Shown: positions 4,421 to 46,990, counted from the stretch's first letter. The stretch is 64,000 bases of DNA from Candidatus Aegiribacteria sp. (GCA_030620995.1 JAUXIK010000004.1:18447-82446); one strand, 5' to 3'. Program-made: numbers and translations. The notes: generated by a model from the letters alone, not told the origin.

Positions 4421-5278
4421 GTGAGAGACGGTATGGATATCATTCAGTTCACCAGAGAAGATATTGGTCGAATAGCAACACAGCTCGCCAGAACGGGGTG
4501 GGCCGAGGCCAACGCGGGAAATATCTCCGTTCTGCTTCCGGAAGGAGCAGCCGATACGATATGGGAAAATCAGGTTTTCTCCGATCCGCTCCCGATACCT
4601 ATTCCTGAACTGGCCGGAAGAACTTTCCTTGTGACCTGCGCCTGGAGCCGATTCAGAACACTTCAGCAAAAACTCGACACGGAAATAATCCCTGTCAGGG
4701 TTTCTTCTGATGGACTGAAAATAATCAGACTTAAGGGAAGCAAAGATCCCACAAGCGAGTTCAGTACCCATCTCCTTGTTCTGGCGGGAGCGGTAAGCCG
4801 CGGTTGGACAACAGCCTCTCTCGTTCATACACATTCGACGCATATGCTGGCGCTGTCCTCCAGTGACCTGCCGGGAGAGATGCTCGAAGATGCCGTCAAC
4901 AGATCTCATCCGGAGGTATCTCTTCTCCTCGGACGCGGTGTACGCTTTCTTGATTACATGACCCCCGGCACATGGGAGCTGGGGGTGGAAACAGCAAAGG
5001 TCTTTGAGAACAGTGACTGCGTTATCTGGAGAAAACACGGCATTCTTGGTCTTGGCAGAGATATTGATTCTGCCTGCGACGCGGTTGAAGTTGTAGAAAA
5101 GGCAGCTCGATTACTTCTCCTTGAGAAATCCGCTTTTGGTAAATTCGTAGGTCTGAAAAACCGCGAACTTGTGCCTAAAGACCCTTTGTCCCCAGAAGAC
5201 TCCGATGAAGATATCGATGATACGGATGGCGATTTGCCACCCGGTCTTCCGATTATAGACATTGGGGTCGGATCTTGA
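4421..5278 (+). CDS. Class II aldolase/adducin family protein with an acidic C-terminal tail
   Basis: The GWAEANAGNIS motif and overall fold resemble the fuculose/rhamnulose-1-P aldolase-like family. The last 5 codons and the stop lie inside the REPIN-like repeat. Confidence 0.65.
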   Translation: MRDGMDIIQFTREDIGRIATQLARTGWAEANAGNISVLLPEGAADTIWENQVFSDPLPIPIPELAGRTFLVTCAWSRFRTLQQKLDTEIIPVRVSSDGLKIIRLKGSKDPTSEFSTHLLVLAGAVSRGWTTASLVHTHSTHMLALSSSDLPGEMLEDAVNRSHPEVSLLLGRGVRFLDYMTPGTWELGVETAKVFENSDCVIWRKHGILGLGRDIDSACDAVEVVEKAARLLLLEKSAFGKFVGLKNRELVPKDPLSPEDSDEDIDDTDGDLPPGLPIIDIGVGS

Positions 5279-5390
5279 ATTTTGACATTTCTTAATTTAC
5301 TCAATGACATATACGCGAAAGAATGATTAACTATCAGATATGACACCTTTTCATCTGTCATGAAAATGTTAAAATTCAAGATCCGACCCC
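5264..5390. repeat. REPIN-like element: two inverted REP-like arms, 5264-5291 (GGGGTCGGATCTTGAATTTTGACATTTC) and 5362-5390 (its reverse complement with 1-2 mismatches), separated by a 70-bp spacer
   Basis: Inverted repeat read directly from the sequence. The arms are about 70% identical to the 29-bp inverted repeats that flank the RAYT gene at 12405 and 13357. Confidence 0.6.
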
Positions 5391-7991: not shown

Positions 7992-9086
7992 ATGTCAGAC
8001 ACCTACCAAATATTAGCAATCAATCCCGGCTCCACGTCTACGAAAATATCTGTATTTGAGAGTGAAAAGGAAGTATGGTCTGCAAAAATATGTCATTCCA
8101 ATGATGAGCTGGCAGGATTTGACCATATTTTTGAGCAGTATGATTTCAGAAAAGATGTTATTGAAAAAGAGCTTGAGGAAGCTGGTTACGACATTCCATC
8201 CTTCGACGCGATTGTCGGTCGGGGTGGACTTCTCTACCCTGTTGAGGGAGGAACATACGAAGTAAACGAGAAGCTCCTTGAAGATCTCCGTGCAGGCGTT
8301 CAGGGGGAGCATGTTTCTAATCTGGGAGCTCCAATTGCAAATGAACTTGCTCATGAAGCCCACTGTCCCGCGTTTATAGTTGATCCGGTTGTTGTAGATG
8401 AAATGGAACCTCTTGCAAGGTTCTCGGGTCATCCTGATCTTCCCAGAAGATCGATCTTCCATGCCCTGAATCAGAAATCTGTTGCACGGAAAGCATCCTC
8501 AGATATTAAGAAATCATACGATAAGGTAAATCTCATAGTAGTTCACCTCGGTGGAGGAATCTCAGTGGGCGCTCATAAAGCCGGAAGGGTTATTGATGTC
8601 AATAACGCTCTTAATGGTGATGGCCCTTTCACACCTGAAAGATCCGGGGGTTTGCCGGTAGGTGATCTGACAGCACTCTGCTTCAGCGGTAAATACACTC
8701 TGCCGGAAGTCAAAAAAATGATCAAGGGCGCTGGCGGAATTGTAGCTTATCTTGGTACAAACGATATGAGGCTCGTCGAGGATAAAATCAGAGAAGGAGA
8801 CAGGAAGTACGCTCTGGTCTACGAAGCAATGGCATACCAGATAAGCAAGGAAATTGGAGCCATGGCAACTGTTCTTGAGGGCAATGTTGATGCAATAGTC
8901 CTTACCGGCGGAATCGCCTATGACAGGAATTTCGTGGAAATGATTCGCAGCCGCACGGGATTCATTGCGGAGATTCTGGTCTATCAGGGTGAGATGGAAA
9001 TGGAAGCTCTTGCGCTTGGAGGTTTGAGAGTGCTTCGGAAAGAAGAGAACGCAAAAATATACAACCCACGGAGGAAAGTTCTCTAA
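7992..9086 (+). CDS. buk: Butyrate kinase
   Basis: [14 protein letters not shown]-terminal ASKHA motif and full-length butyrate kinase similarity; the probable start is MSDTYQ. Confidence 0.85.
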
Positions 9087-10805: not shown

Positions 10806-12405
10806 TTGAAACTTTATAGAATCTGCTTAACAGCTTCAGTATTATTACTGCTTTTTCTCACTTCGTGTTTCGGCTCTTCGGTAGATAATTCAACCTGGAT
10901 TCTGATTGTCAGAGATGACTCCGTATCCGTTGGACAGCTTGGTGAATCATGGCTTGGAATGGATAGCCTTCAGAGGGAATCTTTCCTGTCAAAGGACAAT
11001 ACTATTGGTGAATTCATTGTCGCATACGGGAGAAGAGTCATCCTTGAGAAGGAGCTGGAAGCAGAGGGATATTTGACTGATCCTCTTTTTCTGTCTTACA
11101 GAAATTCATGGTTGATGGTCGAAACCGCCACGGCCGCAAAGAAATTGCTGGTTGAGCGGGAGGCTGCTGAAGTTACCGAATCCGATATACAGTTCTACGG
11201 TGAACACCTGGGCAGAAACGTGGTGTATACAGTCTATCCCGGTTCTGAAAATGAATTCAGTATCGGTCCGGTACATCTCCCGAATCTGCGACGTGAACTT
11301 GCCCTGCATCTTGATACATTATCATTCAATGAAATCGGAACTGACGGATCGGGTCTTCTAGTAAGGCTCGATACTCTGATGATGGTCGATTCTATCCTGA
11401 TCAAGAATGCTCTTTCTGATCCAGCCACAGTCAGTGATATGGCGATAAGAGATCTTTCTAATGCAAGATTCAATCGATGGGCACAGGATGTCAGTTACCG
11501 AATCTACACTGATTACTCGGTTACCTTTGATTCAGTTAAAGTTAAAGATTTCACTCAGCACCTTATCGGTAATAATCCTGATATGTCTGATAGCGTTGTT
11601 ATCGTTGAATCGGATTTCGGAACCTGGACAGTGAAATATCTTGAAGATGAGATTCTTTATCTTAGTACTCGTATTGATGTTCAGCCTGGATCTTCAGTCT
11701 GGATTGAAGATATGATTCAGGTCCTGCTGATGCAGTGCTATTTCTATGAGTTCATGCAGGAGGAATCTCCCGGAATACTTGACTCGCTGCGAGATGAATC
11801 CGAAACCTACCTGCTTAGTTTCGCCTCCGAAGAGTACTACAATGACATGATAGGCTCAATTGTAACCGTAACTGAATCAGACATCATATACGAATATGAG
11901 ACTCTTGAAGAACCTTTTATGATTGAGGAGAAGCGTGTACTTCAAGCAGCCTATATTCCAGTTGAGAGGACTGATGATTTCCGGCAGGCTGTATATGAAG
12001 AAAAACTGGAAGAATTTATCTCAGAGCTTGACGGTTTCGGATACCTGGCGGCAGATTCAACTCAAATCCAAATAACTCGACCTCTCAGATTTGGTGAAGT
12101 TCCAGGAGGCCACGGAGAAGAAGTTTTCTTACTCGATCCGTCCGATACGACAAGCTGGCTGGGGCCGGTCAGTGTATTCGCAGATGATGGGTCTGCTCTG
12201 CTCAGGCTTATAGAAGTAGTGCCTTCAAGGGTTGCGAGAATTGATGAAGTCAGGCGAAGTCTGAAGAACATGGCCATGACCAGACTTCAGGAGCAGGCCA
12301 CTGTTGAATTGATTCAGGAACTTGAAGAGAAGTACATTCTTATCATCAATGAAGAGATCCTTGACAAATTGCCTTCGGATCCGGGAATGTGGGCAACTCT
12401 ATAGG
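10806..12405 (+). CDS. Hypothetical lipoprotein (about 533 aa)
   Basis: The probable start is TTG at about 10806 after an AAAGGAAAA RBS, reading (M)KLYRICLTASVLLLLFLTSC with a lipobox. The longer start on the track overlaps the mutase gene. The stop TAG abuts the RAYT left inverted repeat. Confidence 0.5.
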
Positions 12406-13357
12406 GGTCAAACCTTGTATTTTAACATTATGGCTTATTAATATATTATTGCTAGCTATAATATTGTTCGTTCTTTATAATACGAGATACAGTTGCGAAG
12501 TGAAGTCCCAGGAAATCAGCTATCTCCTTCTGGCTGTATCCATACTCAATATATGCCTTGTATATAGCTTTGTCTCTTGCTTCCTTTACAGATCTAACAC
12601 CCAGGTCAAGCAGTTTCTCAATTGAAGGTCTGTCCGCATATCGTTGCCGTTTCAAAAACTCAGATTCATTTTTCGAATCAATCATTATGTCTCTCAGAGA
12701 CTCAACAAATTCGTCTTTACCGAGTATCAATCCACCCCTGGTATCTTCAAGCGGAGAATCACTTGATATTCCATCAAGTACAAACTTCCTGAAATTGCGT
12801 TTGGCCGTTTCCGAAGAACTTCCAAAATGTTCCTGTAGGAAATCGGTCTTAATGAATGGCATGCTTTCGTCAATTCCGACCATCTGCCTGTAACTGCTCC
12901 AAGAATATTCTTCTGGTTTCTCAACAATTCCTGCCCTTACAGGATTAAGTACAATGTACCTGCATAGTTCCAGGAAGTAGTTCTCGCGGTCAACAACAAT
13001 TGCATTATATCTTCCCTGAAAAACATGTCCGACAAGATCATGATGCTTATTGAAGTACTGTGCGTAGATACCGTTGAGGTTTTGCATTCCCATCGACAGA
13101 TTCGTCTCGGGAGTTTCAATAAAAAGATGATAGTGAGTATTCATGAGGCAGAGGTCATAACAATTCCATCCGAACCGATTCAGTATTTTCTGAAATATTT
13201 CAGAAAACTTATGTCTGTCCTCTTCATCAAGATAAATAGGCTGGCAATCGTTACCTCGGGCATAGATGTGGTAGAGCGCTCCTGGGAATTTAATACGTAA
13301 AGGTCTCATAATATATATATTATAATGTCATAATGTTAAAATACAAGGTTTGACCCC
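12405..13357. mobile_element. REP-RAYT unit: a tyrosine-transposase gene bracketed by perfect 29-bp inverted repeats, GGGGTCAAACCTTGTATTTTAACATTATG at 12405-12433 and its exact reverse complement at 13329-13357
   Basis: Inverted repeats read directly from the sequence; the ends abut the stop codons of the two convergent flanking genes. Confidence 0.75.
12452..13309 (-). CDS. rayT: REP-associated tyrosine transposase (IS200/IS605-like Y1 transposase) with a C-terminal helix-turn-helix extension
   Basis: HxH motif (NTHYHLFIET), a downstream conserved Tyr region (YSWSSY), and a C-terminal DnaA-domain-IV-like HTH (YSQKEIADFLGLHFATVSRI). Confidence 0.8.
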   Translation of the reverse strand: MRPLRIKFPGALYHIYARGNDCQPIYLDEEDRHKFSEIFQKILNRFGWNCYDLCLMNTHYHLFIETPETNLSMGMQNLNGIYAQYFNKHHDLVGHVFQGRYNAIVVDRENYFLELCRYIVLNPVRAGIVEKPEEYSWSSYRQMVGIDESMPFIKTDFLQEHFGSSSETAKRNFRKFVLDGISSDSPLEDTRGGLILGKDEFVESLRDIMIDSKNESEFLKRQRYADRPSIEKLLDLGVRSVKEARDKAIYKAYIEYGYSQKEIADFLGLHFATVSRIIKNEQYYS

Positions 13358-13986
13358 TACTGGGGGAAGAATTTGTAGAGATCAAGGTTTCTGATGGCAA
13401 AATTCAATGCCGGATACAGGATTTTTGAAAGGGCTCCAAACCAGAGGAGGCCGAATATGATAAAAATCCCGAAGCGCTCAAGCTTTCTATAACTGTACAG
13501 AGCCTGTCCATGAAGAAATCTCGCTACAATTCTGCTGCCATCAAGGGGTGGAATCGGCAGCAGGTTAAAAACCATAAGAACAATATTCATCAGAGCGGCA
13601 AAGGCCAGGCTATGCATGAGTATGGCCGGCATTATACCGGATGCGAGATGAAGCAGAACTGTTAGCACAAGGGCAATAGCAAGGTTGGTAGCAGGACCTG
13701 CGATAGCAACCCACATCATTCCCTGTTTTGGATCTCGAAAATGCCTGGGGTCAACCGGAACCGGTTTTGCCCATGCGAGCAATATCGGACTGTTGGTTAT
13801 CAACAACATCGCCGGAAGAAGAATGGTTCCAATGGGGTCTATGTGGGGAATTGGATTAAATGTAAGTCTGCCCATTCTATATGCTGTGGGATCGCCAAGC
13901 TTCAGGGCAACATATCCATGAGCTATTTCGTGGCATACGACACTGAAGAAGACAAGGATAATTACGAATGGAGTCTCAATACCCAT
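13357..13986 (-). CDS. Site-2 protease family (M50) membrane metalloprotease
   Basis: HEIAHG (HExxH) inside a TM helix, a downstream LDG motif, and a polytopic membrane profile. Confidence 0.8.
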   Translation of the reverse strand: MGIETPFVIILVFFSVVCHEIAHGYVALKLGDPTAYRMGRLTFNPIPHIDPIGTILLPAMLLITNSPILLAWAKPVPVDPRHFRDPKQGMMWVAIAGPATNLAIALVLTVLLHLASGIMPAILMHSLAFAALMNIVLMVFNLLPIPPLDGSRIVARFLHGQALYSYRKLERFGIFIIFGLLWFGALSKILYPALNFAIRNLDLYKFFPQ

Positions 13987-14778: not shown

Positions 14779-14839
14779 GGGGACACGCAGCAGAGCGTCA
14801 TGTTCTTTGGGGACACGCACCAGAGCCTGCATGTCCCGC
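14779..14839. repeat. REP family 2 doublet (GGGGACACGCAGCAGAGCGTCATGTTCTTT + GGGGACACGCACCAGAGCCTGCATGTCCCGC)
   Basis: Near-identical doublets at 34865-34924 and, inverted, at 46931-46990. Each unit is an imperfect palindrome GGGGACAyGCA...TGCrTGTCCCC. Confidence 0.6.
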
Positions 14840-21974: not shown

Positions 21975-23132
21975 TTAAAACAGTCTGGATGCAATATCCT
22001 CAACCCGATCGACCTTCTCCCATGAGAATGTTCCATCGTGTCCCGGTTCTCTCCCGAAATGTCCAAAAGACGAAGTCCTGCTGAAAACAGGCTTTTTCAG
22101 ACCAAGGTAGTCTATGATATCATATGGCTGCAGAGGGAAAATATCCTTTACCACAGTCTCCACCGCAGAGATATCGGAGACTTTTTCCGTTCCGAATGTC
22201 TCTATCATAACAGAGACCGGTTCTGCCTGGCCTATTGCGTAGGCAAGCTGTATCTCGCATCTTTCAGCAATCCCGGCTTCAACGAGGTTTTTGGCAATGT
22301 AACGTGCCATATATGCTGCGGAACGGTCAACCTTTGTGGAATCCTTGCCTGAAAAAGCTCCGCCTCCGTGACGTCCTGTGCCACCGTATGTATCGACAAT
22401 TATCTTCCTGCCGGTAAGGCCGGTATCACCATGGGGCCCGCCAATGGCAAATCTGCCGGAGGGATTGAAAAGGAGTTTACCTGTCCATTGAAGATGCGGT
22501 TTGCACAGAGTAAGAACAGGGGATACTACTTTATTGCGAATGTCTTCAATCATATCTTCGGTTCCCACGTCCGGAGCATGGTGTACCGAGAGTAGAATCT
22601 CATCGATGGATACAGGCTTGAAACCCTCATATTCAACGGTTACCTGGCTCTTGGCGTCAGGTCGCGCCCATGGCAGTTCTCCTGCCAGACGAACCTCCCT
22701 GAGTTTTTCAAGAAGCCTGTGAGCAAGCTGTATCGGGTATGGCATATGAGCTTCCGTCTCGCAGCATGCAAACCCGAACATCAATCCCTGATCTCCAGCT
22801 CCCTTATTGTCTACAACACCATGATCGATATCCGGAGACTGAGAATGTATCCTGATCCTGTATGTGTTTTCATTGAAATGAAAACCCAGATCAGGCTGAT
22901 CATAGCCAATAGACCTGATAGTATCTCTGGCGACTTTCTCATAGTCCACATTGGCATGGCTTTTCACTTCACCCGCCAGCAGGCAGAAATTAGTAGTTAC
23001 GAGAGTTTCACAGGCCACATGAGCATTTGGATCAACGGTAAGGTGAGCGTCAAGAACAGCGTCTGATATCTGGTCACAGATTTTGTCCGGATGACCTTCG
23101 GAAACGGATTCGCTGGTAAACAGTCTTCCCAT
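21975..23132 (-). CDS. metK: S-adenosylmethionine synthetase
   Basis: GHPDKICDQISDA and the GGGAFSGKD motif; full-length. Confidence 0.95.
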   Translation of the reverse strand: MGRLFTSESVSEGHPDKICDQISDAVLDAHLTVDPNAHVACETLVTTNFCLLAGEVKSHANVDYEKVARDTIRSIGYDQPDLGFHFNENTYRIRIHSQSPDIDHGVVDNKGAGDQGLMFGFACCETEAHMPYPIQLAHRLLEKLREVRLAGELPWARPDAKSQVTVEYEGFKPVSIDEILLSVHHAPDVGTEDMIEDIRNKVVSPVLTLCKPHLQWTGKLLFNPSGRFAIGGPHGDTGLTGRKIIVDTYGGTGRHGGGAFSGKDSTKVDRSAAYMARYIAKNLVEAGIAERCEIQLAYAIGQAEPVSVMIETFGTEKVSDISAVETVVKDIFPLQPYDIIDYLGLKKPVFSRTSSFGHFGREPGHDGTFSWEKVDRVEDIASRLF

Positions 23133-23162: not shown

Positions 23163-23280
23163 AAGAAAAAAAGCCGCCTGCCGGCGGCCTGAGGTTGCTA
23201 TCGGCTTTTTAGCACTTTTTTTTACGTGGTTGCAATAGACCTCAAATCATTCCACGAAGTTAAATGATACGAGTTATCCC
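23163..23280 (-). promoter_or_regulatory. Structured metK 5' leader: intrinsic terminator (GCCGCC-GGCA-GGCGGC + U7) 30 nt upstream of the start codon, preceded by a candidate SAM-II/V-like aptamer
   Basis: The terminator hairpin and U-run are read on the minus strand. The upstream segments UAUUGCAAC and GUGCUAAAAAGCC loosely resemble SAM-II conserved blocks; the class is not confirmed. Confidence 0.3.
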
Positions 23281-23452
23281 GACAAAGTCAATCATCAGGA
23301 ATAGTTGTTTATTCTCTGCATTTTCCATCTACCCGAAAGGATATCTAATCGTGAATGCCGGGCATTACTGTCATTGACAGATGAAAGCTACTGTTGGTTA
23401 TATTAATTTCAGATAAATAAAGTATATTATGTTAGTGAACTGCTTCAAAATT

Positions 23453-23493
23453 TGATTCCGGTGCGTTGGGAAATTAAGTTTTCAACTCATTAC
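23453..23493. repeat. 41-bp direct repeat copy A (TGATTCCGGTGCGTTGGGAAATTAAGTTTTCAACTCATTAC); its partner is at 27743-27783
   Basis: 38 of 41 bases identical to copy B. Together the copies bracket the 942-aa T9SS cargo gene and the beta-propeller gene. Confidence 0.55.
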
Positions 23494-23511
23494 CTGCATT
23501 CAAGCAAGTCC

Positions 23512-26340
23512 TTAATGACAGACAATCACTGTTCTGGTTTTCTCAAAGGAATCAGAAACAAGTGACACATAGTAAATCCCCACAGGGACATTATGTCCGC
23601 TTGCATCCTTTAGATCCCAGTGAAGATTATGGTTCCTCATGCCCGGTAAACCCTCTGCGAGTATTTTAACCAGATGCCCGGATATGTCATAAATACGTAC
23701 AGTTGAGGTAACAACTTCAGATGTCATGAACTCAATACTTACTGAACCTCTTGCGGGATTTGGGAATACATCAAAGTAATTACTTATTTCGACTTCCCTG
23801 GATGATAATTCTGATCTGCCTACATTGTTTTGATCAATAGTTTTGTAACTGAATGTTTCCACACCAGGAGCATCCAAGTATAGGGTTGTGTCAGATGGAA
23901 CAGTATTCGGATACTCGTACTCACAAATTTCTACTTCAACTCCACCTTGATAACTATATTCTCGTAATAAAGATATGTGTGTGTCATACAGAATACCTTC
24001 ATCCCACCATTCATCGCCTCCGCCTACCATGGTTTCAACACTGTTTCCAGTATAAGCATCATAAACTGTAACATAAAGCTCAACATCCCATACGCTGGCG
24101 TTAGTAATATCCGATCTAAAAGTTGCATCTTCCTGCAAATCTTTTGTCTTCCATCCTAACCAACCGAATCTATCCCGTTCATGGGTTTCATTCCAGTTTT
24201 CGTCATAGTAGGTTGGAGTAGTTATTTCAGTAGCACATACTTCACTCGATATTTCACTTGTACCTGGATCAAAGACATATTTATGGTGTACGATATTCCC
24301 AAGATAGTTAATAATATATAGGTGTAAAATGTCCTCATCATCGTCTTCATACATCCATGCTCCACCATAGATATAGCAGCTAGAGCTACCATCTTCATCT
24401 CCAGAATGGAGATAATACCCTTCATTAAATAGGAACGCATCAGATAACGAAGGAGGGAGAGTTATGTAATGTTTTGGATATACATATTCATCACGTTCAG
24501 GAATATATATAACATCATAATAAGCCCATATGGTATTCGACCTGGAATCCTGCTCACTATCCAAGCGGTAATACCCATAGAGATATTCTTCTACTACAAT
24601 TAGCGTATCTACCGCTTCATAGTTACCACTACTACCTGAGCCAAAGGCTGGTACTATGGTTGAGGCATCTGCATCCAGTCCATTTCCAGCAAGATCAGTC
24701 GCAAAAGAAGAATCAATACCCAGCTCAACGATTTGATTGCCAACATAATCCGGTGGTTGATTTCCAGTACCGAGATATATAGCCCACATATACACATCAT
24801 CCTGAGTCATGCAGGATTCATCAAGTTGAAGTTCTATCAAAGACGACCAGGTTATACTGGAATCTGGACCAACATACATCTTGATTGTCAAAGGAATTTT
24901 CTGAATCAGATTTGTAACAGGCTCGCTATAGTCAATCTCCAATGAGTATTCATTAGTACCGCCTCCGGTACTGATATAAGGAGAGAAGTTATACCCAACA
25001 TAATTATAACTCAGCGTCCTTCCTGAATCCGGGTCATTCAATACATTTGCTTCGTACGAACCATCTCTGATTATTTGCCAGTCATTTTCTTTAAGACAGA
25101 TATCGGTGATCCTTGGAGCCCAGTTATCAACAATTACACTTGTAACTTCAGATTCTGGGTCAGTGATATCAACAACTGGCAATGTATCAATAGTAGGCGT
25201 ATCAGATCTTTGAGGAATTGCCTCTACTTCAATAGCATAACGTCCATCCATGAATGCTGCAGCTTCATCAATGTTTGCGGGATTTGCACCATATCCGTCT
25301 GATAGTCTTGTATCCCACGCCCCTCTGCAGAATTCATCATCGTTATAATCAATTAGACGATTATAAGGATTGATCCACACAGTCTCGACACCAGGGAATG
25401 ATGCATTTACCCTGGCGCTATCGCAGGTATTTGTCAAGCATAAGTGATTTTGCCAATCATCGTTGTCGTAATAAATCTTCTGGTATTCATCATAGTAATT
25501 CTGTGGATCAGCATCATCAGGGATTTCCCCACTGAAGTTAAATAAAGTACGCCATGAACCCAGAATGTCGTTGGGGTAGTATTCTAGTGTGTTGGGGTCT
25601 TGCCAGAGAAGGCGCCACCTGACTTCCCGTACCCCACATTTATCGTTTGAAAGATCATAGTAATACTTAGTATATGGGCGAACAAGAATATCTACTATAT
25701 CACGCACTTCGTCCCAAGGTATTATTGGAAAATATGCGTTATCCGGAAGGATCACAACTCCATTTGATCCAAAACTACCATTGTAATTAACCGGTCCGAA
25801 TATCGCTTCATCGTAAAGAGGTGTAAGAGGTGGACTTAGATATTCGAACGGGTTGAAGTATCCGACTTGAGGAGTTCCCGGGGAAAGAGCACCTTCATCC
25901 AGCCAGCTGAAGTGTACATGACTCCCGAGGGGATGTTCTACTAATTCTGAAATCACAGACCTGTTGTACATATGATTGAGATCTAGTTTGAACCTTCTAT
26001 GATTAATATCTATATGACCATATAGCCATCCGTAAGTAGCACTTGAGTCATTACCGATTATTACATGACCTTCAGTCGGTGAACTACCTGTTACTGTATC
26101 AGGCCATATATCAATCACCCAGAAATCGTCTCCAGGATAAGGACATAATGCTAGATCAAACTCATTGCCATGAAAATCAAGCGCTCTGTGAAACTCATCC
26201 TGATTATTCCACTGACCGTACCCTCTCCAGGGAGTTACAGAAGCACCCAAAGGCCAGGCTGCTGGAGACTGAGGCACATCATAGTCGACTGTAGATAATA
26301 TTAGTAGAAGACAAAGACAAAACATATTATCTCTCCTCAA
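23512..26340 (-). CDS. Large secreted protein with an N-terminal M23/LytM-like peptidase domain and a T9SS C-terminal sorting domain
   Basis: Signal peptide present. The HRALDFHGNEFD...GHVIIGNDSSATYGWLYGHI block resembles M23 HxxxD...HxH. The last about 80 aa (FDVFPNPARGSVSIEF...VRIYDISGHLV...GIYYVSL) are a T9SS C-terminal domain. Confidence 0.55.
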   Translation of the reverse strand: MRRDNMFCLCLLLILSTVDYDVPQSPAAWPLGASVTPWRGYGQWNNQDEFHRALDFHGNEFDLALCPYPGDDFWVIDIWPDTVTGSSPTEGHVIIGNDSSATYGWLYGHIDINHRRFKLDLNHMYNRSVISELVEHPLGSHVHFSWLDEGALSPGTPQVGYFNPFEYLSPPLTPLYDEAIFGPVNYNGSFGSNGVVILPDNAYFPIIPWDEVRDIVDILVRPYTKYYYDLSNDKCGVREVRWRLLWQDPNTLEYYPNDILGSWRTLFNFSGEIPDDADPQNYYDEYQKIYYDNDDWQNHLCLTNTCDSARVNASFPGVETVWINPYNRLIDYNDDEFCRGAWDTRLSDGYGANPANIDEAAAFMDGRYAIEVEAIPQRSDTPTIDTLPVVDITDPESEVTSVIVDNWAPRITDICLKENDWQIIRDGSYEANVLNDPDSGRTLSYNYVGYNFSPYISTGGGTNEYSLEIDYSEPVTNLIQKIPLTIKMYVGPDSSITWSSLIELQLDESCMTQDDVYMWAIYLGTGNQPPDYVGNQIVELGIDSSFATDLAGNGLDADASTIVPAFGSGSSGNYEAVDTLIVVEEYLYGYYRLDSEQDSRSNTIWAYYDVIYIPERDEYVYPKHYITLPPSLSDAFLFNEGYYLHSGDEDGSSSCYIYGGAWMYEDDDEDILHLYIINYLGNIVHHKYVFDPGTSEISSEVCATEITTPTYYDENWNETHERDRFGWLGWKTKDLQEDATFRSDITNASVWDVELYVTVYDAYTGNSVETMVGGGDEWWDEGILYDTHISLLREYSYQGGVEVEICEYEYPNTVPSDTTLYLDAPGVETFSYKTIDQNNVGRSELSSREVEISNYFDVFPNPARGSVSIEFMTSEVVTSTVRIYDISGHLVKILAEGLPGMRNHNLHWDLKDASGHNVPVGIYYVSLVSDSFEKTRTVIVCH

Positions 26341-27520
26341 TCAGGCAGGAGTGTATACTGATGCCATCAAAGTACCAGAAGCCGGAATTATCACTGCGGA
26401 AACCAGTGTCGGAATTGACAAATCTGGCATGTGCATCAGGCAAGCTGCTTGATAACCATATTATATCCATATATGGAGATAGTAAAACGATGCGGGCAAA
26501 GACTCTAGGGTGTTGATATGCCAGAAAGGCCAGCACATGACCATTATCTGACACAGATTCTGACGTGAATTGAACTGGCATTTCAGAAACAGCTCGGGAA
26601 TCGTTTATGCTAAGGTACTTATCAAGTTTGATAATATCATCGGTTAGTGATATTGATCGGGCGCCAATATTTTCACCCCTGAAGTAGCAGCTTAAAATTA
26701 TAACTGAATCTGATTCACTGATTATAGGATCATTTACGCTTTCATCAAAATCGAATCTTGCGATTTGAGTACCATCATCAGTGCTGATAATCTGAAGTTT
26801 ATACAAATCCAGAACAGTAATAAAGGTATCATCATGAGATAACGTGAAGTTTCTTGTATGGATTATTCGTTCATTATCAGGTTCGAATAATTCCCTGTTC
26901 CATAGAAGATTCCCCTGCATATCGTATGCGCGCAGGCTATCGTAAGTGGTTGAATAGATACGGTCACCCGCATTAGATAGGCCTACAAAATGACCCCAGC
27001 TGAAGTTGTCCCTGGACAGAATGCAGTTGAAATCGGAATCGTACATCCTCAGACAGGTGGATTGTTTCACAAGCACCGTTCCATCGTTGGTTACACGGAT
27101 GAGAGGATTCCCGGGTAACTCCATTTCACTTGAGAACAGAGGAATTGATTTGACCGTGTTCTCAGCAAGATCGAAGAGGATAAGCTTCTCATCAAAATAG
27201 CAGTATCCGAGCAGATACTGACAATCAGGAGAAAAAGTCAATCTATAAATATCACCGGAATAGGGAATGCTGTTTACTACAGTATCACCCTCAAGTAGAA
27301 GAATGTACTCCTTGTCAACAAGAACAGTATGCCACTCAAAACCTTCCTCCGATTCAACACCGTATACAGTTCCCAGCTGCCCGTATACCGGATCAATACG
27401 ATCAAGAACATTGTAGCTCCATTCCTCAACGATGCGGATATCAGGTGAGGTCCAGCTTGATTCAGAGGTAATCGCAGGTGGGATAACAAGCATGATCATG
27501 CTGATGATATTGACAAGCAT
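26327..27520 (-). CDS. Secreted hypothetical protein, beta-propeller-like
   Basis: Signal peptide and beta-rich repeats; overlaps the upstream gene by 14 nt, so co-transcription is likely. Confidence 0.45.
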   Translation of the reverse strand: MLVNIISMIMLVIPPAITSESSWTSPDIRIVEEWSYNVLDRIDPVYGQLGTVYGVESEEGFEWHTVLVDKEYILLLEGDTVVNSIPYSGDIYRLTFSPDCQYLLGYCYFDEKLILFDLAENTVKSIPLFSSEMELPGNPLIRVTNDGTVLVKQSTCLRMYDSDFNCILSRDNFSWGHFVGLSNAGDRIYSTTYDSLRAYDMQGNLLWNRELFEPDNERIIHTRNFTLSHDDTFITVLDLYKLQIISTDDGTQIARFDFDESVNDPIISESDSVIILSCYFRGENIGARSISLTDDIIKLDKYLSINDSRAVSEMPVQFTSESVSDNGHVLAFLAYQHPRVFARIVLLSPYMDIIWLSSSLPDAHARFVNSDTGFRSDNSGFWYFDGISIHSCLIEER

Positions 27521-27742
27521 ATTTATCCTTCTTTCACGATATCAATAACTGGTGAAAATCAATTTCCTTATTGGAATATGTAATGATACAAAACTATCTA
27601 ATGCATGATAATGAACCCTATGTAAAATAATAAGGGGGGGGTAAAGCATGTCAATAACTCATTTAATTAATACTGCTAAAGGAACATTGATATTCAGAAA
27701 CCATACCCGAGGTATAGTGGCCAAATGAACCATGTCAGGAGG

Positions 27743-27783
27743 TGATTCCGGTGCGTTTGGAAATCAAGTTTTCAACTGATTAC
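27743..27783. repeat. 41-bp direct repeat copy B (TGATTCCGGTGCGTTTGGAAATCAAGTTTTCAACTGATTAC)
   Basis: See copy A; preceded by AGGAGGTG. Confidence 0.55.
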
Positions 27784-27919
27784 TGATAAGAAAATTAACT
27801 GATTCTCTTCTTCTTTTTCCTCTTCTTGCGCAAGTTCAGCAGGATCAGCTATCTCTTCAAGATTATCCTGATCGAATTCCTGACCGGTTTATTCGGATAT
27901 TTCCCGGTGTTCTCGCCTT

Positions 27920-29137
27920 TTATATCTCCTCTATCAACACCGAGTAACTGACGGTACCTCCGCTGAATACGCTGAGATAATAAGTTCCGGCAACTGCATC
28001 ATCAGGAAGACCGAGTTCACAGGTAACTCCCGGAGCCACATCCCACTCGGTATGGATTTCATCCTGATCTGGATCGAAAAGCCCCACGTTCAGTCCTGCT
28101 CCGTCAGCATCCGGAGTAACCATGAAGGTCAGGTTATGGCCTTCAGCAACTTCAACGCTGTACCAGTCTTCTTCGTCATAATCACCGATAATACCACTGA
28201 TTGTCTGTCCTGTTTCCAGTGCAACAGCGTAAACAGCTCTGTCTCCGGCATCATCACCGCTCCCTGCGTCATCCTGAAGAACGGCATTAACTGTCAGACT
28301 GTACGTTCCTGTGCCTCCTTTGAAGACACTGATGTAATAGATTCCTCCCGATGAACTGTTCATTATCATCGACCTTGTTAATGTCACACCTGCGGAAATG
28401 TCCCATTCCGTCCAGATATCATCGACTTCAGTATCAAGGAATGCGATATTTGCGCCTTCTGAATCATTTCCTGGAGCAAATGATATTTCAAGAATGCTGC
28501 CGGATGGAACCTCAAAGGAATACCAGTCGGATTCATCCAGATCACCTATAATGCCTCCCACTGGCTCTCCAAGTGTGATCTCAATCGCATCCGGAGCCCT
28601 TCCGCCGGCATCAGCACCTGAAATTCCATCGTTCTGCATTACCTTTGAAAGCTCAAGTGTGTAACCGCCAGGGCTTCCCTGGAATACATGCACGTAATAA
28701 TCACCGGAAAAATCCTCTGGCGTCATATAGCTGAATTCCTTGCTGACAGGCGGCTTTACATCCCATTCTGTCCACATGTCGTCCAGTTCGTCATCAAGTA
28801 TTCCAACATTAATACATTCAGCATCGTTCGAAGGAGTAAAAGATACGGTGAAAGTTTCTCCGCCATTAACGCTGAATACATACCAGTCATCCGTTTCTTC
28901 CAGCTCGAGTTCTCCTTCTGTAACGCCTTCACCCAGCACAAACGCATCAGCCGCGGTGTTGTTCGTACCTTCCGGGGTCTCAGCAGGAGTTTCAGCGGAT
29001 TCTCCCTGCTCCTCAATTTCTCCTTCGGTCTCCCCGGCGGGTTCACCCTGTTCCTCAGGTTCTCCCCCGCCGCAGGCCATTACAAGAAGTACGACCATTC
29101 CAGAGAATATCAGCGCCGTCCATAAAACGTGTTTCAT
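27920..29137 (-). CDS. Lipoprotein with an acidic linker and three tandem PPC (pre-peptidase C-terminal)-like domains
   Basis: Lipobox (LVMACGG) and an E/G/P-rich linker. Three repeats of about 100 aa each carry D-DWY-F/V...TEWDV/I. Confidence 0.55.
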   Translation of the reverse strand: MKHVLWTALIFSGMVVLLVMACGGGEPEEQGEPAGETEGEIEEQGESAETPAETPEGTNNTAADAFVLGEGVTEGELELEETDDWYVFSVNGGETFTVSFTPSNDAECINVGILDDELDDMWTEWDVKPPVSKEFSYMTPEDFSGDYYVHVFQGSPGGYTLELSKVMQNDGISGADAGGRAPDAIEITLGEPVGGIIGDLDESDWYSFEVPSGSILEISFAPGNDSEGANIAFLDTEVDDIWTEWDISAGVTLTRSMIMNSSSGGIYYISVFKGGTGTYSLTVNAVLQDDAGSGDDAGDRAVYAVALETGQTISGIIGDYDEEDWYSVEVAEGHNLTFMVTPDADGAGLNVGLFDPDQDEIHTEWDVAPGVTCELGLPDDAVAGTYYLSVFSGGTVSYSVLIEEI

Positions 29138-29255
29138 TCTTCTCTCCCTTCAAATAACTTGCGGATCCCGCAAAAACTGAAGAATTAAGTACGCCCTGGT
29201 ACATCAATCTTCTTCCACTTACTGACTTCACAACATGGGAATACCGGCCGACCGG

Positions 29256-29537
29256 TTAACGATATGTCCTGCGACTGATGAAACACATGTCAACCACAGG
29301 CGATATTCCTGTTTCGAATATCTGTATCATTAAAATACGCAAGTACAATCCTGGGGGCAACTGGCCAACATTAGAAACCGGACCCTGGGGACTATCGGAA
29401 GAAATTTTCTGATGAAGAAACCTTTTACGAGAATTCCGACACTGATAATTCGTGAAATCTTCCAGCAGAATAACTCTGTCAGCACCGAACAGAATGAAAG
29501 GGAGCACCAGTAACATGATTATGTATATCGCACGCAT
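29256..29537 (-). CDS. Small hypothetical protein with an N-terminal hydrophobic segment
   Basis: ORF only; weak. Confidence 0.2.
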   Translation of the reverse strand: MRAIYIIMLLVLPFILFGADRVILLEDFTNYQCRNSRKRFLHQKISSDSPQGPVSNVGQLPPGLYLRILMIQIFETGISPVVDMCFISRRTYR

Positions 29538-29712
29538 TTTTATTCTCTTCTGAATGAAAATTACTATAAATTATTTTCTCTTTAATTTATACTAGTTTAG
29601 TAGGAAATAATAATTGGTTGAACAATTCCCTCCCATAGCCTGTTTTTTTTAATCTAGTATAATTTATACTTGTTGAAGACAGCACTTGTGTACCATTACA
29701 GTGTAGCATATA

Positions 29713-34864: not shown

Positions 34865-34924
34865 GGGGACACGCACCAGAGCGTCGTGCTTTTTGGGGAC
34901 ACGCACCAGAGCGTGCATGTCCCC
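34865..34924. repeat. REP family 2 doublet (GGGGACACGCACCAGAGCGTCGTGCTTTTT + GGGGACACGCACCAGAGCGTGCATGTCCCC), 12 bp upstream of the uvrA start
   Basis: Same family as 14779 and 46931. Confidence 0.6.
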
Positions 34925-46930: not shown

Positions 46931-46990
46931 GGGGACATGCAGGCTCTGCTGCGTGTCCCCAAAAAACCTGACGCTCTGCTGCATGTCCCT
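46931..46990. repeat. REP family 2 doublet in inverted orientation (GGGGACATGCAGGCTCTGCTGCGTGTCCCC + AAAAAACCTGACGCTCTGCTGCATGTCCC)
   Basis: Reverse complement of the doublets at 14779 and 34865. Confidence 0.6.

What the first reader, a model, noticed from the sequence alone, without database searches (positions are those of the whole stretch)
23453..27783. AT-rich-looking islet bounded by 41-bp direct repeats carrying a T9SS-secreted M23-like giant protein and a beta-propeller protein
Near-identical 41-bp direct repeats (38 of 41 bases) lie at 23453-23493 and at 27743-27783. They bracket two overlapping minus-strand genes, 942 aa and 397 aa. By eye the composition is more AT-rich than the surroundings, with long A/T-rich codon runs between 24.2 and 26.3 kb. 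Direct-repeat-bounded, compositionally distinct segments are typical of insertion by site-specific recombination. Alternatively the repeat could be a shared regulatory or 3'-end element. Copy B is preceded by AGGAGGTG, and both copies sit just 3' of a minus-strand gene's stop codon.
Basis: partly seen in the sequence, partly recalled or inferred. Interest (0 to 1): 0.6.

Follow-up and report, generated by a model that had tools for sequence, protein, structure and literature searches.

The report
Recombinase-free accessory secretion operon islet
A 4.5-kb, AT-rich two-gene operon has been inserted between two housekeeping genes of an uncultured Aegiribacteria genome; it encodes a beta-propeller protein and a secreted M23-like peptidase, and its 41-bp "bounding" repeats are two copies of the operon's own 3' tail, not integration sites.

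Summary
Two 41-bp direct repeats (38/41 identical) bracket two minus-strand genes, and this is the lowest-GC 4.5-kb stretch of the window (0.404 against 0.476).

It is a true insertion. In three related Aegiribacteria genomes the flanking 405-aa gene and the SAM-II riboswitch/metK sit about 300 nt apart with nothing between them.

The site-specific-recombination reading fails on four counts:
- The empty sites contain no copy of the repeat.
- Both repeat copies lie inside the inserted DNA.
- There is no target duplication; about 8 nt of target are replaced.
- The islet holds no recombinase, tRNA gene or terminal inverted repeats.

The repeat is the conserved 3'-flank motif of the large gene. 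It occurs at that position in other genomes and nowhere else in 493 kb. Copy B is a 5'-truncated copy at the left edge of the insert, so the incoming DNA was probably longer than one unit.

The same operon sits at four or more different loci in relatives. At two loci it is flanked by 178- and 296-nt direct repeats of local genes, and a third locus carries a displaced copy of its upstream flank. That is the signature of one homologous plus one illegitimate crossover.

The cargo is a beta-propeller protein plus a T9SS-secreted protein with a complete M23 catalytic motif. Verdict: an ordinary kind of event with an uncharacterised, mosaic cargo.

The parts
23296..27780 (-). The whole inserted segment, about 4.49 kb. 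It is absent from the orthologous 405-aa gene / metK spacer of three relatives.
   Evidence: blastn and pairwise alignment against empty sites L023, L025 and L027. The right junction is sharp at 23295|23296. The left junction is at about 27780 (CAG|TAATCAG). About 8 nt of the empty-site sequence (GATTTCGA) are replaced. GC is 0.404.
27743..27783 (-). Repeat copy B. It is a 5'-truncated copy of the operon's own 3'-flank motif, sitting at the very left edge of the insert and upstream of the operon promoter.
   Evidence: An equivalent copy sits at the same junction in L031. It lacks the GAGATGCTTGATT-type stretch that precedes the motif after the stop codon in native copies.
27627..27654 (-). The operon's own sigma-70-like promoter, TTGACA-16 nt-TATTAT. 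Its spacer contains a C8 tract.
   Evidence: Best promoter match in the region, 11 of 12. The same element including the C-run is conserved upstream of homologues in L002 and L031.
26327..27520 (-). 397-aa protein with an N-terminal hydrophobic signal or anchor and a beta-propeller fold. It has no Pfam family.
23512..26325 (-). 937-aa protein (942 aa from the TTG at 26340). It has a signal peptide, an N-terminal M23-like metallopeptidase domain, about 650 aa of beta-rich domains and a T9SS type A C-terminal sorting domain.
23453..23493 (-). Repeat copy A. It is the native 3'-flank motif, 18 nt after the stop codon of the large gene.
   Evidence: The homologous motif lies at the same distance from the stop codon in L009, L017 and L002.
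23296..23452 (-). 157-nt AT-rich tail of the insert beyond copy A. Its distal 89 nt are shared with L031.
27920..29137 (-). Upstream flank, not part of the insert: a 405-aa gene with a PPC-domain repeat.
   Evidence: It is directly followed by metK in L023, L025 and L027.
23199..23261 (-). Downstream flank, not part of the insert: the SAM-II riboswitch leader of metK (21975-23132). The -35 element of its promoter (TTGACT at 23291) abuts the right junction of the insert.
   Evidence: Rfam RF01726, 48 bits against a gathering score of 44. Promoter. Alignment to empty sites.

Best explanation
**What it is.** The islet is an accessory, strain-variable operon of Candidatus Aegiribacteria (Fermentibacterota). 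In order it carries its own promoter, a 397-aa beta-propeller protein, a translationally coupled 937-aa T9SS-secreted protein with an M23-like peptidase domain, and a conserved 3'-flank motif.

**How it got here.** It entered the spacer between the 405-aa gene and the SAM-II/metK promoter by illegitimate, microhomology-type joining. Neither a site-specific recombinase nor a transposase was involved.

**What the repeats are.**
- The 41-bp repeats are two copies of the operon's own 3'-flank motif.
- Copy A is the native one.
- Copy B is a truncated copy that forms the left end of the inserted DNA.
- The incoming fragment was therefore longer than one unit. It came from tandem or concatenated modules, or from a motif-module-motif arrangement made earlier by a single crossover.

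**How it spreads.** Among relatives the operon moves and is re-acquired by host recombination, one homologous plus one illegitimate crossover (Campbell-type single crossover or HFIR). This leaves long direct repeats of local genes.

**Shown:** the insertion, the junctions, the origin of the motif, the absence of att sites and target duplication, and the multi-locus distribution with local direct repeats.

**Inferred:** the longer-than-unit donor, the recombination pathway, and the cargo function. The proposed function is a periplasmic propeller acting as partner or inhibitor of a secreted peptidoglycan-type hydrolase.
For: **Empty sites.** L023, L025 and L027 have 405-aa proteins 92, 82 and 80% identical to the window's. 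In all three the 405-aa gene is followed directly by the SAM-II riboswitch and metK. Their spacers align with each other and contain about 8-26 nt that the window lacks.

**The motif belongs to the module.**
- No copy of the 41-mer is present in those spacers.
- Its 20-nt core AATCAGTTGAAAACTTGATT matches at 19/20 and 18/20 about 20 nt after the stop codon of the homologous large gene in L009 and L017. L002 matches more weakly.
- In 493 kb of related DNA plus the window it occurs only next to this operon.

**Left junction.** The target reads ...CACAGTGAT..., the native motif context reads ...GCAGGTAATGAG..., and the junction reads ...TCAGTAATCAG.... This is a 6-7-nt microhomology.

**Nothing mobile in the islet.** There is no integrase, transposase or tRNA gene, and no inverted repeats at the ends. 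There are no relatives in phage, plasmid or viral collections.

**The operon has at least four genomic contexts**:
- L002: flanked by a 296-nt, 99% identical direct repeat made of the clp promoter and 5' coding sequence.
- L001: flanked by a 178-nt, 86% identical direct repeat made of the 3' end of a HEAT/GGDEF gene. The two copies differ at 11 synonymous and 4 non-synonymous codons, with frame and stop codon kept. P = 2.5e-4 under neutral drift of one copy, so they look like two functional alleles.
- L009: a 5' fragment of the upstream-flank gene lies downstream of the operon.

**Experimental precedent.** Single crossover of circular molecules in E. coli produced 109-950-bp duplications flanking the inserted DNA (PMC3240628).

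**Composition.** Operon GC is 0.40-0.42 in every genome, against 0.47-0.49 in the flanks of four of the five loci compared. The fifth, L017, is an assembly palindrome without real flanks.
Against: - No donor with tandem modules was seen among the roughly 10 operon loci recovered. The longer-than-unit origin of copy B is therefore inferred from the structure alone.
- The sequence after copy A resembles the sequence after copy B only marginally (24 of 500 shuffles reach the score).
- Copies A and B (38/41) are more alike than either is to L031's copy (about 33/41), although L031 shares the same left junction. This needs gene conversion or a later re-acquisition of the large gene.
- The motif core is more conserved than the adjacent coding sequence, so it has some function. 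That function could in principle be recombinational.
- The window's own repeat is not made of local target sequence. The single-crossover signature seen in L001 and L002 therefore does not directly explain the window.
- The distribution is patchy. The closest relative by flanking genes, L023, is empty, whereas the more distant L031 is occupied. This requires recombination between lineages.
Confidence: 0.6

Rival explanations
1. The 41-bp motif is a recombination site for a recombinase encoded elsewhere and acting in trans, in the manner of integron attC sites or Xer-exploiting elements. On this view the operon, or the large gene plus its motif, moves as a cassette.
For: - Copy B sits within 2 nt of the left edge of the insert.
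- The core has dyad symmetry (AATCA-N10-TGATT) and is more conserved than the neighbouring coding sequence.
- The block 'large gene plus motif' is present or absent as a unit at two different loci: the window against L031, and L004 against L033.
Against: - Empty sites carry no motif.
- The right end of the insert lies 157 nt beyond copy A, not at it.
- No motif lies between the 397-aa gene and the large gene, which a cassette model for the large gene would need.
- The edges of the deletion in L031 show ATAATAT microhomology instead.
- No recombinase lies within 10 kb. The nearest transposase is a Y1 enzyme at 12452-13309.
- Other operon loci (L002, L004, L029) have only the 3' copy.
Confidence: 0.12
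2. One reading: an integrase-mediated genomic islet whose 41-bp direct repeats are attL and attR, or a transposon with a 41-bp target-site duplication.
For: Direct repeats bracket a low-GC segment, and empty sites exist in relatives.
Against: - The att core or target sequence should be present once in the empty site, and it is not.
- Both copies are inside the inserted DNA, and 8 nt of the target are lost rather than duplicated.
- There is no integrase or transposase, no tRNA target and no terminal inverted repeats.
Confidence: 0.03
3. The repeat is a generic terminator, REP or other 3'-end element of the genome, and its two copies here are coincidental.
For: Both copies lie downstream of minus-strand genes. 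The genome does carry REP-like palindromes and a Y1 transposase.
Against: - There are only two copies in the 64-kb window.
- An nhmmer profile finds it only beside this operon in 493 kb.
- It has no stable fold (z = -1.0 and +1.8) and no U-tract.
- It is absent downstream of the 405-aa gene in the empty-site genomes.
Confidence: 0.03
4. The operon is ancestral at this position and was lost precisely in L023, L025 and L027. On this view there was no insertion in the window's lineage.
For: L031, a more distant relative by flanking genes, has the same junctions. The operon diverges from L031 (87% nt identity) about as much as the flanks do (84-91%).
Against: - The three empty spacers are mutually alignable and share nucleotides missing from the occupied sites, so three independent clean deletions would be required.
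- The operon is compositionally foreign in all genomes with real flanks.
- It sits at a different, more widely shared locus (Metallophos | C25 peptidase) in most relatives.
Confidence: 0.07

Closest known systems
Campbell-type single-crossover insertion and homology-facilitated illegitimate recombination (HFIR), as in Acinetobacter, S. pneumoniae, P. stutzeri and E. coli conjugation (PMC3240628)
   Same: Foreign DNA is inserted by host recombination without a dedicated recombinase, using one homologous anchor and one illegitimate, microhomology joint. The single-crossover products carry 109-950-bp direct duplications of the anchor. That matches the 178-nt repeat in L001, the 296-nt repeat in L002 and the displaced flank fragment in L009.
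   Different: In the window itself the direct repeat is not local target DNA. It is the operon's own 3' flank, and both window junctions look illegitimate. The pathway is inferred from sequence only, in an uncultured lineage whose competence is unknown.
Polymorphic effector-immunity modules and their displacement, such as Vibrio cholerae T6SS EI arrays (PMC5361080) and Rhs/CDI orphan modules
   Same: - A two-gene module is swapped between strains.
- It has mosaic blocks.
- 'Orphan' copies of one partner occur: 397-only loci L031, L032, L033 and L035.
- Tandem partner paralogues have constant N-termini (L022).
- HFIR has been proposed as the mechanism for such modules.
   Different: Secretion is by T9SS, not T6SS or T5SS. 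The putative partner gene lies upstream, not downstream. No toxicity or immunity has been shown. L001 carries an intact large gene with a frameshifted 397-aa gene.
Integrase-borne genomic islands with att direct repeats, including elements that carry a surrogate gene end (e14 in icd; from my own knowledge)
   Same: A low-GC segment bounded by direct repeats. In L001 the repeat is the 3' end of a gene at 86% identity, as with surrogate gene ends.
   Different: There is no integrase, no att sequence in the empty site and no tRNA target. The repeat differs at every locus.
Integron gene cassettes (an ORF plus a 3' attC site)
   Same: A gene unit ends in a conserved 3' element, and the unit is flanked upstream by a copy of that element.
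   Different: There is no IntI gene, no attI site and no cassette array. The motif lacks a stable attC-like hairpin. The insert's right end is not at the motif.
M23 (LytM/lysostaphin/EnpA) metallopeptidases and T9SS type A cargo proteins
   Same: HxxxD and HxH motifs plus a third His are conserved across the family. The fold matches the EnpA catalytic domain and lysostaphin. The C-terminal sorting domain matches PF18962 and TIGR04183 and resembles that of PorU.
   Different: The Pfam M23 model and profile comparison fail. The family is tiny: 43 clusters at 50% identity among 1.84 billion representatives. It is always paired with a propeller gene.

Membership tests
Integrase-mediated genomic island (att-flanked) | A tyrosine or serine recombinase gene inside or beside the element | tested here: not met
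   Only two ORFs lie between the repeats and neither has a recombinase domain. The neighbours are metK, M23, holB, the 405-aa gene, a TPR gene and dnaJ/grpE/dnaK.
Integrase-mediated genomic island (att-flanked) | The direct repeat (att core) is present once in the unoccupied site | tested here: not met
   Empty sites L023, L025 and L027 lack the 41-mer.
Integrase-mediated genomic island (att-flanked) | Integration into a tRNA/tmRNA gene or a conserved gene end | tested here: not met
   The window has no tRNA or tmRNA gene. The insertion lies in an intergenic spacer just upstream of a promoter.
Transposon / insertion sequence | A transposase, terminal inverted repeats and a target-site duplication | tested here: not met
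   No transposase domain. No inverted repeats at the ends. About 8 nt of the target are replaced rather than duplicated.
Integron cassette | An attC-type imperfect palindrome folding into a stable hairpin, with an integron integrase and attI nearby | tested here: not met
   The folds of both copies are no better than shuffles. No integrase was found. A formal attC model was not run.
Insertion by one homologous plus one illegitimate crossover (single crossover / HFIR) | The insert is flanked by a direct duplication of local homologous sequence (the anchor) | tested here: inconclusive
   Met at related loci L001 (178 nt) and L002 (296 nt), and half-visible in L009. In the window the repeat is operon-derived, not target-derived.
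Insertion by one homologous plus one illegitimate crossover (single crossover / HFIR) | The two anchor copies derive from donor and recipient alleles | tested here: met
   In L001 the copies differ at 11 synonymous and 4 non-synonymous codons with frame and stop kept. P = 2.5e-4 against drift of one copy. This was tested on the related locus only.
Insertion by one homologous plus one illegitimate crossover (single crossover / HFIR) | Microhomology at the illegitimate joint | tested here: inconclusive
   The left junction shares CAG-T-AT between the target and the native motif context. The donor sequence at the right junction is unknown.
T9SS type A cargo protein | A C-terminal sorting domain (TIGR04183 / PF18962) | tested here: met
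   PF18962 at 33.1 bits against a cut-off of 27. TIGR04183 at 31.2 bits against 23, residues 858-940. PorU CTD match.
T9SS type A cargo protein | T9SS machinery encoded in the same genome, and secretion shown | not tested
   Other T9SS-CTD proteins occur in related loci. Machinery genes were not searched for.
Peptidase family M23 | HxxxD and HxH zinc/catalytic motifs | tested here: met
   H51, H109, H141 and H143 are invariant and D55 is at least 90% conserved in 11 sequences that go down to 25% identity.
Peptidase family M23 | A match to the family profile (PF01551) | tested here: not met
   No Pfam hit at E <= 0.01. hhalign against the window's own M23 protein gives probability 0.1. Only weak LECT2 hits, E = 0.45.
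Peptidase family M23 | The M23 fold | tested here: inconclusive
   Foldseek against the EnpA catalytic domain gives probability 1.00, target-normalised TM 0.57 and E = 8.8e-3. Lysostaphin gives probability 0.98. The model's mean pLDDT is 44, with only residues 50-150 at 59-83.
Effector-immunity pair | Toxicity of the effector, neutralised by the adjacent gene product | not testable with these tools
   Only indirect signs exist: orphan 397-only loci, tandem 397 paralogues, and co-varying adjacent blocks. The counter-sign is the frameshifted 397-aa gene in L001.

The most novel reading that the evidence does not exclude
The operon is a T9SS-dependent polymorphic effector/partner system. It would consist of a secreted M23-type bacteriolytic enzyme and a cognate periplasmic beta-propeller inhibitor ('immunity').

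Its variable block spans the propeller's C-terminal half and the peptidase domain. That block would be exchanged between Aegiribacteria strains by host recombination. The process would leave orphan immunity genes and long local direct repeats. Expression may be phase-variable through the C8 tract in the promoter spacer.

This would extend effector-immunity biology, known from T6SS, CDI and Rhs systems, to the type IX secretion system in an uncultured phylum.
Probability: 0.2. Interest if true: 0.65.

Novelty: new member of a known kind. Interest (0 to 1): 0.4.

Why it matters
**For genome scans.** Direct repeats around a low-GC segment do not by themselves indicate site-specific integration. 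Here the empty-site test shows the repeats travelled inside the insert. Related loci show that ordinary host recombination can generate 40-300-bp flanking repeats around a recombinase-free operon.

**For biology.** The cargo is an uncharacterised, lineage-restricted pair: a beta-propeller and a T9SS-secreted M23-like protein. It shows mosaicism, orphan partner genes and presence/absence polymorphism at several loci. That makes it a concrete candidate for strain-level antagonism or cell-surface variation in Fermentibacterota, a phylum with no cultured representatives known to me.

Tried and rejected
**Searches that found nothing**
- The 31-nt core of the repeat was searched in genome contigs and metagenome contigs: no exact match.
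- The exact 942-aa product is not on record.
- Viral, phage and plasmid collections hold no relatives apart from C-terminal-domain-only hits in Rhodothermus plasmids.
- PADLOC defence models gave no hit.
- Rfam hits near the repeat (U4, U8, isrD) are far below their thresholds. The repeat is not part of the SAM-II riboswitch, which lies 190 nt away.

**Ideas tested and dropped**
- RNA hairpin or terminator: rejected, since the folds are no better than shuffles and no terminator-like site lies at either copy.
- The 157-nt tail as a decayed copy of the promoter region, which a concatemer donor would predict: only marginal, 24 of 500 shuffles.
- An early working idea that the 178- and 296-nt repeats in L001 and L002 are long target-site duplications from staggered cuts: set aside for L001 because of the synonymous-biased differences. 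It is not excluded for L002.

**Technical dead ends**
- L017 looked like inverted tandem modules but is an assembly palindrome, with 100% identical inverted repeats of 1544 and 918 nt.
- A chimeric query (the 397-aa protein plus a gene flanking the L002 locus), meant to recover the L002 empty site, returned only 397 homologues. The empty sites of L001 and L002 were therefore not obtained.
- The whole-protein structure model of the large protein is poor (pLDDT 44).

Full report
**1. Observation**

The two 41-bp sequences at 23453-23493 and 27743-27783 are real. They are 38/41 identical and are the only matches in the window at up to three mismatches, and 100 shuffles gave none. Gapless extension gives 58 nt at 81%.

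All genes in this region are on the minus strand. Read on that strand, from 29137 down to 21975, the order is as follows:

| Feature | Coordinates |
|---|---|
| 405-aa gene | 27920-29137 |
| copy B | 27743-27783 |
| promoter | 27654-27627 |
| 397-aa gene | 26327-27520 |
| large gene (937 aa from the ATG at 26325; 942 aa from the TTG at 26340) | 23512-26325 |
| copy A | 23453-23493 |
| 157-nt tail | 23296-23452 |
| metK promoter | -35 at 23291 |
| SAM-II riboswitch | 23199-23261 |
| metK | 21975-23132 |

A source's own gene call for the identical large protein is 937 aa.

The segment is the lowest-GC 4.5 kb of the window. Its GC is 0.404 against 0.476 for the rest, and only 2 of 595 sliding windows are as low. 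GC3 of the large gene is 0.326.

**2. Organism and relatives**

Homologues of the large protein are few and come from Candidatus Aegiribacteria / Fermentibacteria metagenome-assembled genomes. The N-terminal 420 aa find only 43 clusters at 50% identity among 1.84 billion representatives. The 397-aa protein has 25 close homologues in the same lineage.

**3. It is an insertion**

The 405-aa flank protein has close homologues. In three of those genomes (L023 at 92% identity, L025 at 82%, L027 at 80%) its gene is followed directly by the SAM-II/metK leader, then M23, holB, PSP1 and metS, exactly as in the window. The spacer is about 300 nt.

Alignment places the right junction sharply at 23295|23296. 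That is immediately upstream of ATGATTGAC, the -35 region of the metK promoter. The left junction is at about 27780 (CAG|TAATCAG).

The three empty spacers align with each other. They contain about 8 nt (GATTTCGA and variants) that the window lacks. The empty state is therefore ancestral. About 4.49 kb were inserted and there is no target duplication.

**4. What the repeat is**

The empty sites contain no copy of the 41-mer, so both copies are part of the inserted DNA.

The core AATCAGTTGAAAACTTGATT recurs about 20 nt after the stop codon of the homologous large gene. It matches at 19/20 in L009 and 18/20 in L017, and in diverged form in L002 and L029. A profile built from these copies finds nothing else in 493 kb of related loci plus the window.

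Copy A is thus the native 3' flank. Copy B lacks the stretch that normally links the stop codon to the motif, and it begins within 2 nt of the junction with target DNA. It is a 5'-truncated 3' flank lying at the left end of the incoming fragment.

The junction shows a 6-7-nt microhomology between the target (CAGTGAT) and the native context (CAGGTAAT).

The motif is not a terminator or a structured RNA. Fold z-scores are -1.0 and +1.8, and no Rfam family or terminator pattern matches.

There is no recombinase, transposase or tRNA gene, and no terminal inverted repeat. No phage, plasmid or viral relatives were found.

**5. A nested history at the same site**

L031's flanks are more distant (405-aa protein at 78% identity). 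It has the same left and right junctions, a copy-B equivalent, the promoter and a 400-aa homologue of the 397-aa gene. It lacks window 26325-23385, which is the large gene, copy A and about 68 nt.

The edges of that gap carry an ATAATAT microhomology, which is consistent with a deletion.

The closest relative by flanks (L023) is empty, while the more distant L031 is occupied. Presence/absence alleles have therefore been exchanged between lineages.

**6. The operon elsewhere**

The pair (propeller gene plus large gene) is conserved even in 24-30% identical paralogous families. Its location varies.

- **Site C (Metallophos | operon | C25 peptidase).** This is the most widely shared site.
  - L004, L005 and L029 have both genes and no flanking repeats.
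  - L032, L033, L034 and L035 have an RHH-PIN pair plus the propeller gene only. There the indel is again 'large gene plus about 107 nt of 3' flank'.
- **L002.** The operon lies upstream of a clp ATPase gene. It is bracketed by a 296-nt, 99% identical direct repeat comprising the clp promoter and first 79 codons.
- **L001.** The operon is bracketed by a 178-nt, 86% identical direct repeat of the 3' end of a HEAT/GGDEF gene. The copies differ at 11 synonymous and 4 non-synonymous codons and keep frame and stop. P = 2.5e-4 under neutral drift of one copy, so they look like two alleles that were each functional.
- **L009 (site C).** A 61-codon 5' fragment of the Metallophos gene plus its upstream spacer lies downstream of the operon.

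These structures are what a single homologous crossover plus one illegitimate joint produces. Experimentally, single crossovers of circular molecules gave 109-950-bp duplications flanking the insert (PMC3240628). HFIR has been proposed for effector-immunity module turnover (PMC5361080).

The operon's GC is 0.40-0.42 in every genome, against 0.47-0.49 in the flanks of four of the five loci compared. The fifth, L017, is an assembly palindrome without real flanks.

**7. Cargo**

*The 397-aa protein.* It has a conserved hydrophobic N-terminus. Its model is a beta-propeller (pLDDT 77, pTM 0.74), and Foldseek returns many propellers at E about 1e-10.

*The large protein.*
- It has a signal peptide and a T9SS type A sorting domain.
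- Its N-terminal domain has H51, H109, H141 and H143 invariant and D55 at least 90% conserved across 11 sequences. That is the M23 catalytic constellation HxxxD ... H ... HxH, from established knowledge of LytM and lysostaphin.
- The confident part of the model matches the EnpA M23 domain and lysostaphin.
- Sequence profiles do not recognise it.

*Mosaicism.* Identity in the propeller's C-terminal half tracks identity in the M23-like domain (Spearman 0.50 over 21 pairs). It does not track identity in the rest of the large protein (0.07). The two co-varying parts are adjacent in the DNA, so physical linkage alone could explain this.

*Possible effector-partner system.* Propeller-only loci and tandem propeller paralogues with identical N-termini (L022) recall orphan immunity genes. 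On the other hand, L001 has a frameshifted propeller gene at a G8 run. The effector-partner reading is therefore an inference, to which I give about 0.2 probability.

**8. Verdict**

- Site-specific recombination with the repeats as att sites is not supported.
- The repeats are the operon's own 3'-flank motif, carried in on a fragment longer than one unit.
- The event type, a recombinase-free accessory islet acquired through host recombination, is known.
- The cargo family and its multi-locus, repeat-leaving behaviour are new details in an uncultured phylum.
- What remains unexplained: why the motif core is so conserved, where the second copy originally came from, and what the proteins do.

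Noticed in passing
window 12402-13359: A 285-aa ORF (12452-13309, minus strand) has an IS200-like Y1 transposase domain (E = 2e-12) and a C-terminal HTH. It is bracketed by 45-nt inverted repeats (12402-12446 and 13315-13359, 91% complementary). A related 27-nt inverted pair at 5264-5290 / 5364-5390 shares the GGGGTC..CTTG.ATTTT.ACAT motif. This looks like a RAYT/REPIN-type system.
   Followed up: partly
window 14779-14837, 34865-34923, 46932-46989: Three copies of a 58-62-nt internally palindromic repeat (GGGGACACGCACCAGAGC...GCATGTCCC). Two are direct and one is inverted, at 87-93% identity. REP-like intergenic elements?
   Followed up: no
window 23171-23295: A SAM-II riboswitch (23199-23261, minus strand; 48 bits against a gathering score of 44) upstream of metK. 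It has its own TTGACT-16-TATCAT promoter, and a terminator-like hairpin with a T-run follows at 23190-23171. The insert ends exactly at the -35 region without touching it.
   Followed up: partly
window 27627-27654 (minus strand); L002 about 8592-8623; L001 2945-2952: The operon promoter spacer contains a C8 homopolymer. L002 also has C8, and the run is interrupted in L031. The 397 homologue of L001 is frameshifted at a G8 run. This suggests possible slipped-strand phase variation, or sequencing error at homopolymers.
   Followed up: partly
window 29138-29712 compared with L025 8206-9983 and L031 5278-8350: A second indel lies just upstream of the 405-aa gene. Relatives L025, L027 and L031 carry a 334-aa T9SS-CTD gene and a 208-aa gene there, and L031 also a radical-SAM gene. 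The window and L023 keep only about the first 100 nt of the 334-aa gene; the 93-aa ORF at 29256-29537 overlaps that remnant. The neighbourhood is a variable region for secreted-protein genes.
   Followed up: partly
L017 1-6591: This metagenome contig is an assembly palindrome, with 100% complementary arms of 1544 and 918 nt. Its apparent inverted extra copies of the operon are artefacts.
   Followed up: yes
L022 7407-12664: In a distant member of the family, two tandem propeller paralogues (400 and 330 aa) share 149 identical N-terminal residues and then diverge in mosaic fashion, upstream of a 912-aa homologue of the large gene.
   Followed up: partly
L032 1014-1638, L033 9333-9957, L035 5076-5605; remnant in L004 8490-8546: An RHH-PIN (VapBC-like) toxin-antitoxin pair sits immediately upstream of the propeller gene in the propeller-only versions of site C. 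Only a remnant of about 57 nt is left in L004, where the operon has its own promoter instead.
   Followed up: partly
L031 9690-9720 compared with window 27810-27920: L031 lacks about 110 nt of the spacer just after the 405-aa stop codon that the window and all empty sites retain. This is a separate small deletion next to the shared left junction.
   Followed up: no
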